A stretch of DNA of 63,996 nucleotides, filler included, from Octopus bimaculoides (GCF_001194135.2; 5 parts of 5 records of this genome joined end to end with filler, not necessarily neighbours in it); one strand, 5' to 3'; positions 46,820-57,945 are shown, counted from the whole stretch's first letter. A program made the numbers and translations. Notes: generated by a model from the letters alone, not told the origin.

Positions 46820-47010
46820 GTAACCACGTGTGTATCGCTGGCGATTTTCTCCCTCCGTCTTCCCTTCCTTTGGACTTTCTTCTATTTCTGAAGAAGAGTT
46901 TGGCTCGAAATGTTAAATCCTCTTTCCTTCCTTTCCTGAGCGTTTTATAATACAGTAGTTGTACCACATCCTCGCGTTGTTGTTTTTCCTTGTTTGTTCT
47001 TCTTTGTTTG
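46820..47010 (+). mobile_element. Hammerhead-bearing short repeat (Penelope-terminus/retrozyme-like)
   Basis: About 170 bp homologous to the reverse complement of 57765-57945. Confidence 0.7.
46884..46918 (+). ncRNA. Minimal type I hammerhead ribozyme motif
   Basis: AUUU-CUGAAGA-A-GAGU-uug-GCUC-GAAA-UG-UU-AAAU. The core is intact and stem I is AUUU/AAAU. Confidence 0.65.
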
Positions 47011-47081
47011 GATTCACTATGTAATTATGTATGTACGTATGTATGTATGTATGTATGTATGTATGTATGTATGTATGTATG

Positions 47082-47138
<57 letters not shown>

Positions 47139-48018
47139 TGTACATTGATGATTAAAATTGCATAGAATTGAATACGTACTTGTAAGATCCATATATTACG
47201 ATGGAAGCATTAACAACACTCTCTTCCATGTTTGTTTGCAGAAATTCGATCTCTGCTGCCGTTGTAGATATTTTACTTGGCCTGTTTCGATTTCTGTGTC
47301 CTCCCGTTTGTTAAACCAAATATACTGACGATCGTTAAAGAGAAACTAAAAAAACGTAACTCGCATAAAATTGAAAATATATACGTGTGTGCTTGTGTGC
47401 GCCGTGTGTACGTGTGTGTGAATGTATGTGTGTGTGTATTCTCCTAGTAATTTCTGTTAATGTAAAATACTCACCCCCTCCGTACGTTATTTCAAAGAAA
47501 ATGTCATTCAGTTTGATCAGACAACCAATTACAGATGACCAGAATCGATATAGCTGTCCTATAAGAGTCCCAACCATTTAACAGCTTGTTCTTTCCTGAT
47601 AACAAGGACTATCCGGTTTTGGCTTTGGAATCCTTGAGTTCACACACAATATTGTATAGCGTCATCACATCATTCCTACTATTTACCGCTTCTCCTTGTC
47701 CTTTTTCATTTCAGCCCTTTCCTCTTGTCAGTCTCGCAGCCCGCTTTACCACACATTAGACAAACTGATTCTTTCTCTCTCTTCTTCTCTTTCTCAAATC
47801 CTCTTCCGCCCTTTGCAGTCCTACGAGTTGATCAATTACCTCCCGTGGTACTTCTCTGTTCCCTTCTTTTGTGACAGATTGTATACTTTGCGCTTTCTTT
47901 TACAGTTGTTCTGAGCTAACCGTCTCTTCTCGAACAGTGTGGGCGTGATGCAATATTTGACTCCAGTCCCTCTGTTGTAACGGTTACCGCTCTGTAGTTG
48001 TAATATTTTGTTTCTCCA

Positions 48019-55200: not shown

Positions 55201-56760
55201 CGGCAGACTCCCTTTCTCCCATTCATTCTCTTTACTAAGCAACCTTTCATAGTAGCGTCTCCAAACCTCTCTCTTTGCAGCCTCATTTAATGCAAGTGGG
55301 CCATCATCCCTGCGGACACATTTCTCTCCTACGACATCACGATTCTCTCTCACATACTGTCTTGCAACACGAAATACTGTCTTTAGTCCTCATGGTACAG
55401 AACATTGGCAAATCTTTTCTTGTCTGCTTCCCCTCTGGCTAAATAAACCTGTCTCCTAGCTTCCCTTCTGGCAGTCTGATACAATTCCCTGCTACCTCCA
55501 TTCTTCCAGTTCTTCCAAGCCTGTTTCTTTGGTCTAATAGCCCAGTCAACCACATTGTTTCACCACCACGTTACTTTGGGTCGAGAGGGGACTTTGCACC
55601 ATTCACAGATCTGGTTAGTGGCTCTCAGTAGGTTGTCCCGTAGAAACCTCCAATTGTCTTCCACATTATGTGATGCTATATCCCCTTCTATATCGTTGAC
55701 GGTTTCGAGTAACACATCTCTAAATCTCTGTCCATATGCAGGATCTTTAAGCTTCCAGACCCTTCTCCTGCAAGCTGGTCTACTTCTGGGCATCCATTTA
55801 GCCCTGATCCCGAAGTCGCTAACTACTAATCTGTGTTGTGGGGTGTATTCTTCACTTGGGAAGGTTTTGGCATTTATAAGCAGCCATATTTCCCTTTTTC
55901 TGGCCAGGATGTAGTCAATTTGACTAGTGTGTCTGCCAGAATGGTAGGTGACTAGGTGACAGGCAGGTTTCCTGAAGTTGGTATTGCAAACCATAAGATC
56001 ATTTGCATCACAGAACTCCAGCAGTCTGGTTCCCTCCTCATTACGGTAACCAATGTCATAGCCTCCATGTACGACATGGAAGCCCCCTGCATGTTGTCCA
56101 ACATGTCCATTGAAGTCATCAGCCACAAAGAGAAGGTCCCTGTCATTCATCAGCGAGGTTGTTTGCAATAGGGTGTCATAAAATCAGTCTTTCTGCCCAT
56201 TCGGTAGCCCCGGTTGAGGGGCATAGGCCGAGATAATGGTAGCTAACCTATGGTGAAGCACTAATCTAAACTTAAGTACTCTGTCACATACTCTGACTAC
56301 CTCGATTACCTTATCAACCCATTTCTTCACAAGAAGTATACTCATGCCCCCGACCCTGTCAGTGTTCCCTGCCCAGAAAATCTTGTACCTGTGTTCTTTG
56401 CCTGTGAGGAACCTAGCGGAACCTCCTTACTTCTTGGATGCCGCACAAATCTACACGTCTCTGTTCAAGCATCTCAACAATCTCACCAAACCTACCGTTC
56501 AGTGTGCCGACATGGAGTGTGCCAACTCTGAGGGTGTGGGAGGTGTGTGCCTGTGAGACCCTTGGATGAGAGACAGCATTGTCATGTACCTGAAAAGAAA
56601 GCTCGCATTTGGCAGAATTCATAAATAATAGCCTACAACCTGCATACACAACACCATTTTTATGCGCTATATGATCGATAAACCCTGGGTAGCGGTGGGG
56701 ATGCCATTAGGCCCTTAGAAGTGTTCGCGCGAGACAACCGAAGATGACAGAGGATAGGAC
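52223..56760 (-). mobile_element. Near full-length decayed RTE-clade LINE (AP endonuclease plus RT) with internal duplication
   Basis: EN motifs VGTLNGR, IQEVR, DDFNGHVG, SQIDYIL and HRLVV. RT motifs KAPGPSGI, YRGIKLL, FVDMEKAFDR, GIHQGLVLSPLLF and LYADDLAL. C-terminus GRGRPRKTWD. Many stops and frameshifts; the 5' boundary is approximate. Confidence 0.95.
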
Positions 56761-57764
56761 TTCTGGTAAAGGTTGAGGAGGTGAGAGAGCGGGCGTACCG
56801 CGAGCTGGCATGTTTAGACGAGAGCATCTTCTGCACTTCTATAATATGGTAGACAAATTTAGAGAGAATGAATTAACGAAATGATAAACTTGAATAAAAT
56901 AAATAAAATGTAACGATTAACGGATATGCATGAACATAAGACAAAGAAGGAAGATGAAGCTATCGGAACTATGTTTACATGGTAGAGAAATAGATAGATA
57001 ATAAAGAACGAATGGAGGCGGTTTATGATTTACGCAGATACAGGAATATATGAACGAGGTTGAAAGGATAAAATTTCTTATCTGATCATCTTCTGAAATT
57101 CGTATTCTATCAACAGAGGAATTGAAAATCGAGTAGGGGAAACAGAGCATTGCACTGGTTTATATAGAGTTAGGATTAGTGGGGAAGTGTTGGTGAGTCA
57201 GGTGATAAAATCGAAGAGAGAGAGAGAGTGAGGCAGAGAGAGAGGGGTCTGAGTTAAGTGGACAGGCAGTAAATACAACATGAGGAAGAATATTCTTTGG
57301 GATTTTGGGTAACATAATTTAACGAAACAGCAAATGACGAAATCATGAGAGAGAATATATATATATATTAAATTCAAATTACGACANNNNNNNNNNNNNN
57401 NNNNNNNNNNNNNNNNNNNNNNNNNNNNNNNNNNNNNNNNNNNNNNNNNNNNNNNNNNNNNNNNNNNNNNNNNNNNNNNNNNNNNNNNNNNNNNNNNNNN
57501 NNNNNNNNNNNNNNNNNNNNNNNNNNNNNNNNNNNNNNNNNNNNNNNNNNNNNNNNNNNNNNNNNNNNNNNNNNNNNNNNNNNNNNNNNNNNNNNNNNNN
57601 NNNNNNNNNNNNNNNNNNNNNNNNNNNNNNNNNNNNNNNNNNNNNNNNNNNNNNNNNNNNNNNNNNNNNNNNNNNNNNNNNNNNNNNNNNNNNNNNNNNN
57701 NNNNNNNNNNNNNNNNNNNNNNTATATATTATGTATGTATATATAATGTATGTATATATATATA

Positions 57765-57945
57765 TGACAAAAAACAACAACGTGAGGACGTGATACAGAT
57801 TGTGTTACTGGACGCTCGGGAAAAGAAAGAAAGAGAATTTGACGTTTCGAGCGGAGCTCTTCGTCGGAAACATAGGACAGTCCAAAGAAGGGAAGACAGA
57901 GGAAGAAAAAATCGCCAACGATATCCACGAAGTTACGTTGGGGAA
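57765..57945 (-). mobile_element. Hammerhead-bearing short repeat (Penelope-terminus/retrozyme-like)
   Basis: Homologous to 46820-47010, 9055-9150 and 17845-17905. Confidence 0.7.
57837..57871 (-). ncRNA. Minimal type I hammerhead ribozyme motif (U4C core change)
   Basis: GUUU-CCGACGA-A-GAGC-ucc-GCUC-GAAA-CG-UC-AAAU, with a GUC cleavage triplet and palindromic ACGU. Confidence 0.65.

What the first reader, a model, noticed from the sequence alone, without database searches (positions are those of the whole stretch)
46820..57945. Dispersed non-autonomous repeat carrying a minimal hammerhead ribozyme (retrozyme or Penelope-terminus candidate)
Seen: a ~170-bp family with four copies (9055, 17845, 46820, 57765). 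Two of them contain RUUU-CUGANGA-A-GAGY-nnn-GCUC-GAAA-CG-UC-AAAU. The copies carry different lesions (46884: core intact, ACGU>AUGU and GUC>GUU; 57837: U4C, but intact ACGU and GUC), so the consensus is a complete ribozyme. The stem II loop differs (uug versus ucc) while pairing is kept. No Penelope ORF is adjacent. Established: Penelope-like elements encode minimal type I hammerheads with a palindromic stem III that cleave as dimers, and non-autonomous retrozymes produce circular RNAs. Inference: an octopus ribozyme-bearing mobile family that may cut host pre-mRNAs or form circRNAs. I do not know whether it has been described.
Basis: partly seen in the sequence, partly recalled or inferred. 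Interest (0 to 1): 0.75.

Follow-up and report, generated by a model that had tools for sequence, protein, structure and literature searches.

The report
Hammerhead-bearing ends of a Penelope retrotransposon
The repeat is the cut-short tail end of a known kind of jumping gene (a Penelope-like retrotransposon) carrying a minimal self-cutting RNA motif, so it is ordinary; the one oddity is that several of its lineages spread widely with changes predicted to weaken or block the cutting.

Summary
The motif is real at 46884 (+) and 57837 (-). The two copies lie on different contigs, and the copies at 9055 and 17845 lack it. It is not a non-autonomous retrozyme. It is the 3' end, or pseudo-LTR, of an endonuclease-bearing Penelope-like retrotransposon, probably Neptune clade: single loci show repeat, 5' end, RT, GIY-YIG, CA-rich UTR, repeat. 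The window copies are 5'-truncated insertions ending in TA-type microsatellites. The genome holds at least 2,564 exact motif matches against 0 in controls; 2 of 100 copies sampled independently of the hammerhead have a same-strand partner nearby. Only 777 of 2,564 have both U4 and an NUH site, yet stem II covaries. Most insertions run through the cut site, which suggests uncut templates. Cleavage was not tested. This is a known kind (Cervera and de la Pena 2014), and this scan has reported similar Penelope hammerhead ends on other DNA, including this genome.

The parts
46818..47017 (+). Copy A: 5'-truncated 3' end (pLTR) of the Penelope-like element, subfamily with GUU site; starts ~97 nt before the cut site
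   Evidence: 169 of 181 identical to its subfamily consensus
46884..46918 (+). Minimal type I hammerhead of copy A: canonical CUGANGA, bulged A, 4-bp stem II, palindrome decayed to AUGU, GUU site (predicted cut after 46914), 4-bp stem I
47018..47140 (+). (TATG)n/(TA)n microsatellite directly after the element's 3' end; likely the insertion target
   Evidence: 86 of 100 sampled copies are followed by such repeats
57765..58731 (-). Copy B: ~960-bp 5'-truncated 3' end of the element (CA-rich 3' UTR plus hammerhead), U4C subfamily; lacks the last ~25 nt and runs into (TA)n
   Evidence: 78% over 961 columns to the 3' UTR of L107
57837..57871 (-). Minimal type I hammerhead of copy B: CCGACGA core (U4C), intact ACGU palindrome, GUC site, 4-bp stem I
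9050..9146 (-). Copy C: 3'-terminal stub starting ~11 nt after the cut site, no hammerhead, ends in (TA)n
17840..17910 (-). Copy D: older 3'-terminal stub starting ~27 nt after the cut site, no hammerhead

Best explanation
The repeat is the 3' end (pseudo-LTR) of an endonuclease-bearing Penelope-like retrotransposon, likely of the Neptune clade, and the window copies are 5'-truncated insertions likely made by target-primed reverse transcription of mostly uncut element RNA into TA-type microsatellites. Shown: the layout pLTR(hammerhead)-TATAT-5' leader-RT-CxxxxCxxC linker-GIY-YIG-CA-rich 3' UTR-hammerhead-TATA; the sharp 3' end about 90-110 nt after the cut site; ragged 5' ends; occasional inverted partners. 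Inferred: the element protein nicks (TA)n DNA and starts copying near the TATA junction, usually stopping within 0.1-1 kb, which leaves thousands of solitary ribozyme-bearing stubs. Inferred: the hammerhead can cut only as a dimer, probably with protein help, in transcripts spanning two pLTRs, and cutting is not needed for each insertion. Solitary copies such as those in the window are likely inert passengers.
For: Repeat-5' start-RT-EN-repeat lies in order on one strand in L257, L262 and L263, and in L107 with the RT in an assembly gap. 10 of 20 extended EN loci have the repeat 0.4-2.4 kb downstream on the same strand. 15 of 16 loci that hold the element's first bases (the query locus included) have the repeat directly upstream, and all 16 join through TATAT. 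The best-scoring RT relatives (55-65% identity) carry RVT_1, and some also GIY-YIG; the EN fragment hits Pfam GIY-YIG at E 1.6e-4, just under the cut-off. Of 100 copies picked by a pattern outside the hammerhead, 86 are followed by microsatellite; 2 have a same-strand partner, 6 an inverted partner, and 4 are upstream pLTRs. 49 of the first 70 extend more than 3 nt past the cut site. RNA reads cross the motif with no pile of starts or ends. In an anole PLE, hammerhead mutants do not affect insertion and cleavage needs protein (PMC11167929).
Against: No intact full-length ORF was found; those fetched are frameshifted or gapped. Clade placement rests on motifs that Nematis shares, with no tree against reference clades. 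13 of 94 gap-free copies start at -3 to +10 of the cut site (12 after dropping a mis-scored one, p about 0.002 with a window chosen afterwards), so some templates may be cut RNA. 18 of 70 copies start at -106 to -95, so a short non-autonomous sub-family is not excluded. The RNA test is weak: fragmented, apparently unstranded cDNA, one study.
Confidence: 0.9

Rival explanations
1. Non-autonomous retrozyme: a short hammerhead repeat that makes circular RNA from tandem copies and is mobilised in trans.
For: Rare same-strand pairs exist: a 156-bp tandem pair beside an assembly gap (L268) and 2 of 100 sampled copies. There is a cluster of 5' ends ~100 nt before the cut site (18 of 70). The abstract and introduction of 10.64898/2026.07.22.740005 argue that retrozymes derive from pLTRs.
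Against: 98 of 100 copies have no same-strand partner within 690 bp. The repeat is continuous with a coding element. Published animal retrozymes are 150-450-bp tandem repeats with canonical type I hammerheads (PMC7229834 passages).
Confidence: 0.05
2. The hammerhead is an active, required processing site: it cuts pLTR-to-pLTR transcripts as a dimer, the unit is re-ligated into a circle, and the circle is the template, so insertions read through the site.
For: The core is more conserved between subfamilies than the flanks (1 of 11 against 55 of 134 variable columns, p about 0.05). Stem II shows a compensatory A-U to G-C change (31 G-C, 66 A-U, 2 G-U, 1 mismatch among the first 100 listed; hand count). 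There is an excess of 5' ends just after the cut site. The model is proposed in PMC4209133, and U4C still allows viroid infectivity (PMC3088659 passage).
Against: A subfamily with GUG at the site left at least 280 motif-perfect copies, and GUG does not cleave in tested hammerheads (PMC4191386 passages). Two U4C subfamilies also have a U-U mismatch at the second pair of stem I. Cleavage is dispensable in vitro for an anole PLE.
Confidence: 0.25
3. Dispersed copies have been co-opted to cut host pre-mRNAs.
For: Family sequence is present in RNA, mostly in reads that run on into unlike sequence (80-84% of laid reads). Private substitutions in the core are somewhat fewer than expected (16 against 26.9, p about 0.02).
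Against: The motif has no loop III and needs a second copy, and copies are solitary. CpG decay hits core and flank alike (7.8% against 9.9%, p 0.28). The deficit of private changes may reflect search bias and misaligned homopolymer flanks. There was no RNA over the copy A locus in 3 of 3 runs and no pile of read ends at the site.
Confidence: 0.03

Closest known systems
Minimal hammerheads in pLTRs of metazoan Penelope-like elements, including Neptune (Cervera and de la Pena 2014, PMC4209133; read parts 1-2 of 4: abstract, results, discussion, start of methods)
   Same: Type I motif without loop III, palindromic 15.2-16.2, bulged base between A9 and 10.1, G10.1-C11.1 pair, short stem I; located in the flanking repeats; thousands of mostly solitary copies from truncated elements; many subfamilies.
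   Different: Stem II here is 4 bp with a 3-nt loop (7-8 bp in schistosomes). The core variant named there is U3-A8; here U4C dominates and a G17 lineage exists. The parts read do not mention cephalopods; supplements not seen.
Neptune-clade EN+ PLEs (as described in Craig et al. 2021, PMC8557442; passages read)
   Same: C-terminal GIY-YIG with a CX2-5CxxC linker and CCHH motif, pLTR tandem layout, inverted 5'-truncated partners, microsatellite bias.
   Different: The 3' UTR is unusually long (up to ~2.3 kb) and CA-rich, with the hammerhead ~100 nt before the element end. The clade was not fixed by a tree; Nematis shares the linker.
PAc Poseidon element of Anolis (Frangieh et al. 2024, PMC11167929; read parts 1-2 of 4)
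   Same: The hammerhead lies upstream of the point where copying starts, insertions read through it, and RNA-seq shows no ends at the site.
   Different: In PAc the hammerhead overlaps the ORF start and the clade lacks the linker; here it lies ~370 nt before the likely start codon, and insertions end at TATA microsatellites.
Metazoan non-LTR retrozymes (PMC7229834, passages; bioRxiv 10.64898/2026.07.22.740005, part 1 of 5)
   Same: Type I hammerhead in a short, high-copy repeat related to PLE ends.
   Different: Retrozymes are tandem and non-coding and make circular RNA; this repeat is solitary and is the end of a coding element.

Membership tests
EN+ Penelope-like element | [quoted passage not shown] | tested here: met
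   the frames seen are broken or gapped
EN+ Penelope-like element | Partial tandem forming pseudo-LTRs | tested here: met
   15 of 16 loci with the 5' start have the repeat directly upstream; L107, L257, L262, L263
EN+ Penelope-like element | 5'-truncated and inverted partial copies | tested here: met
   ragged 5' ends; inverted partner in 6 of 100
EN+ Penelope-like element | Optional 30-40-bp tail and 5' intron | not tested
   not examined
Neptune clade | CX2-5CxxC linker and CCHH motif at the endonuclease | tested here: met
   C-x4-C-x2-C before, and CxxC...H...H within, the GIY-YIG frame; shared with Nematis per PMC8557442
Neptune clade | Insertion bias for microsatellites | tested here: met
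   86 of 100 copies; no genome background was computed and the genome is rich in such repeats
Neptune clade | RT phylogeny groups with reference Neptune elements | not tested
   no named reference PLE proteins were at hand; hits carry no clade names
Minimal type I hammerhead of PLEs | Bulged base after A9, G10.1-C11.1, palindromic 15.2-16.2, no loop III | tested here: met
   all 6 subfamily consensuses
Minimal type I hammerhead of PLEs | Canonical CUGANGA core with an NUH site | tested here: inconclusive
   met in 2 of 6 subfamilies (GUU); 3 carry U4C, 1 carries GUG; 777 of 2,564 motif matches meet both
Minimal type I hammerhead of PLEs | Self-cleavage as a dimer | not testable with these tools
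   the dimer fold can be drawn but is far above the minimum-energy fold in all 8 sequences tried
Non-LTR retrozyme | Tandem 150-450-bp monomers each with a hammerhead | tested here: not met
   2 of 100 copies with a same-strand partner
Non-LTR retrozyme | Non-coding, separate from an RT-EN element | tested here: not met
Non-LTR retrozyme | Abundant circular RNA | not testable with these tools
   no RNase R or circle-specific data; a ligated junction would read like ordinary pLTR sequence

The most novel reading that the evidence does not exclude
In this element family the hammerhead has become a pseudo-ribozyme: successful lineages fixed U4C, a GUG site or a broken stem I while keeping stem II by compensatory change, so the fold is kept as a binding or positioning signal for the element's RT-endonuclease rather than as a nuclease. 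The subfamilies form a natural mutant series that would test directly why Penelope elements carry hammerheads at all.
Probability: 0.3. Interest if true: 0.55.

Novelty: new member of a known kind. Interest (0 to 1): 0.24.

Why it matters
As an element it is ordinary: hammerheads in Penelope pLTRs, with thousands of solitary truncated copies, have been known since 2014. What is worth keeping is the natural variation. The role of the PLE hammerhead is still called unclear (PMC8557442), and this family offers lineages that amplified with U4C (most of the 1,507 non-U4 matches) or a GUG site (280 matches). If those forms do not cut, cleavage is dispensable for spread in a real genome, which would extend an in vitro result from one lizard element.

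Tried and rejected
Rfam scan: no hammerhead model among the 150 listed of 192 hits. A long stem joining -100 to +70 of the cut site: weak consensus energy and a positive covariance term, folds differ between subfamilies, rejected. 'Older lineages have the canonical core': rejected, because those clusters came from the canonical-pattern search; its loci (21 of 154 copies) were dropped before the conservation tests. The pile of 5' ends at the cut site as proof of cleavage: not accepted, because the AT-rich bases just after the site can match (TA)n targets and a larger pile lies at -100. Sequencing-run search: no RNA holder listed; raw runs of the same species label were laid instead. Pfam on three RT fragments gave one weak hit, E 0.029; the protein search settled it. 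The protein atlas gave no answer. Lunse et al. 2016/17 on PLE hammerhead variants was not available: I saw only its title and a review's summary, so it may already describe U4C or G17 variants. Paper searches: 'hammerhead ribozyme' + 'octopus' gave 5 papers, 4 listed, none by title or abstract on this family; 'hammerhead', 'U4C', 'core variant' gave 2; searches showed no description of this family. Passages of the Octopus vulgaris repeat paper (PMC13282606) list Penelope families and never use 'hammerhead'. Repbase/Dfam and supplements were not seen. A sequence look-up in earlier scan notes found nothing.

Full report
1. Observation. Both motifs are in the sequence: 46884-46918 on + and 57837-57871 on -. 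The two repeats align at 78% over 170 columns in opposite orientation. They sit on either side of a pack joint and map to contigs C6 and C9 of the 2.34-Gb own genome. The copies near 9055 and 17845 begin about 11 and 27 nt after the predicted cut site and hold no hammerhead.

2. Copy number. DNA searches gave 2,360 and 4,273 first-look candidates, 40 scored each. Exact patterns gave 122 matches for a strict canonical core with GUC, 2,284 for any base at position 4 with an NUH site, 777 for U4 with NUH and 280 for G17; every reversed control gave 0. These are lower bounds because they need exact matches.

3. What the repeat belongs to. Copies share a sharp 3' end followed by TA-type repeats and have ragged 5' ends. 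Walking upstream from long copies crossed a CA-rich stretch of up to ~2 kb and reached a GIY-YIG frame on the same strand in at least 3 of 13 loci. The reverse walk agreed: 10 of 20 extended endonuclease loci have the repeat downstream on the same strand. Endonuclease loci extend upstream into RT motifs and show a C-x4-C-x2-C linker and CCHH residues. L107 shows repeat, TATAT, leader, ATG, an assembly gap, endonuclease, CA-rich UTR and repeat again. A search with the leader gave 30 loci; 16 hold its first bases, 15 of those have the repeat directly upstream and all 16 join through TATAT. L257, L262 and L263 hold all parts in order. The cut site lies 91-109 nt before the junction in 10 pLTRs measured. 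An RT fragment found 217 longer relatives at E<=1e-10; of the 120 listed many carry RVT_1 and some also GIY-YIG, with named hits in sharks, corals and snails. This is the layout of an EN+ Penelope-like element with pseudo-LTRs. Neptune is the likely clade from the linker and microsatellite bias (PMC8557442 passages), but no tree was made. No intact ORF was seen, and subfamilies lie 6-14% from their consensus, so the copies examined are old.

4. Sample independent of the hammerhead. A pattern 45-65 nt after the cut site gave 1,181 matches against 0; I fetched the first 100 listed. 86 are followed by microsatellite. Two have a same-strand partner within 690 bp, 6 an inverted partner, and 4 are upstream pLTRs (L229 is one interrupted copy). 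In the first 70, 49 extend more than 3 nt past the cut site, 10 of them more than 150 nt, and 18 start at -106 to -95. Against a purely uncut template, 13 of 94 gap-free copies start at -3 to +10, above neighbouring windows (12 of 31 after dropping one mis-scored copy, p 0.002, window chosen afterwards). This can be explained by cut templates, by stalling at the fold, or by microhomology of the AT-rich bases after the site with (TA)n; I cannot separate these.

5. State of the ribozyme. All six well-sampled subfamily consensuses keep the bulged A, G10.1-C11.1, a 4-bp stem II and the ACGU palindrome (133 of 154 copies used, those from the canonical-pattern search dropped). Three carry U4C with GUC, two carry U4 with GUU, and one carries U4 with GUG. 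In copy B's best hits position 4 is C in 24, T in 5 and gapped in 1, and the next G is A in 3, the signature of CpG decay from a C4 ancestor, so some 'canonical' copies are probably revertants by decay. Among the first 100 listed matches (hand count), position 4 is C 65, T 31, A 3, G 1. The second stem II pair is A-U 66, G-C 31, G-U 2 and mismatched 1, although the pattern let the two sides vary freely. Between subfamilies 1 of 11 core columns varies against 55 of 134 flank columns (p about 0.05), which points to selection on active lineages. After insertion, CpG sites decay alike in core and flank. Private non-CpG changes are fewer in the core (16 against 26.9 expected, p 0.017), a result against plain neutrality that I rate weak because of search and alignment bias. 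U4C lowers activity in vitro yet allows viroid infectivity (PMC3088659 passage), and GUG is not cleaved (PMC4191386 passages). Two U4C subfamilies have a U-U mismatch at the second pair of stem I, and the C7+GUC forms are predicted to fold into a hairpin that locks the core to the cut site.

6. RNA. Three RNA runs of one study (about 6% of each read) laid 1,620, 1,435 and 1,104 reads on the pLTR-leader at 82% identity. Depth is even across the motif, there is no pile of starts or ends, and 80-84% of reads run on into unlike sequence. At 95% identity the copy A locus and its unique flanks had essentially no RNA depth, while contigs of a fourth run matched those flanks with 0-1 differences. Fragmented cDNA cannot show cleavage ends well, so this is weak evidence.

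7. Mechanism. Shown: anatomy, ends, linkage, subfamily states. From the literature: PLE minimal hammerheads do not cut as monomers and cut weakly as dimers (PMC4209133); in an anole PLE the ribozyme needs protein, copying starts internally and uncut RNA is the main template (PMC11167929). Inferred: the element is transcribed from an upstream pLTR, its protein nicks (TA)n DNA, copying starts near the TATA junction and usually aborts early, leaving solitary stubs. Their hammerheads lack a partner and are unlikely to cut host RNA.

8. Known or new. It is a new member of a known kind. I found no description of this family in the paper searches named, but could not see Repbase, the supplements, or Lunse et al. 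Earlier notes of this scan describe Penelope hammerhead ends in this genome and others; I reached my reading before opening them and did not check their loci. The lineage-fixed U4C and GUG forms are the only part that might interest a specialist. Verdict: real, ordinary, interest 0.24.

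Noticed in passing
window 49325-49488 and 50938-51101: An inverted pair of a 164-bp repeat (93% alike) containing CUGAGGA followed closely by GAAAC; by eye it does not fit the usual hammerhead order. A different family from the finding.
   Followed up: no
window 52600-56700 (-): Decayed LINE-like endonuclease and RT frames (RTE-like by recall), with a ~1-kb internal tandem duplication at 53544-54531 / 54528-55491.
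   Followed up: no
window 48330-49050 (-): Frameshifted mariner-like transposase fragments (label recalled from the motifs).
   Followed up: no
window 44976-45146 and 47883-48395: A very high-copy SINE-like repeat with about 1,000-fold RNA depth and piles of read ends at 45019 and 48105.
   Followed up: no
L268:870-1080 (G000 C1 near 8.745 Mb): A 156-bp head-to-tail pair of truncated hammerhead ends, each preceded by (TA)n, next to an assembly gap; a real tandem or an assembly duplication.
   Followed up: partly
L062 (G000 C23 28.13-28.14 Mb): An element copy with endonuclease lies antisense among exons of a multi-VWA-domain, collagen-VI-like host gene (label recalled from the translation).
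   Followed up: no
L184-L253: A hot spot of 5' truncation 95-106 nt before the cut site (18 of 70), at an AT-rich run that resembles the microsatellite target; it explains why the family looks like a ~200-bp SINE.
   Followed up: partly
L066 and L070: Other PLE-like RT/GIY-YIG fragments of a different family lie a few kb from copies of this one.
   Followed up: no
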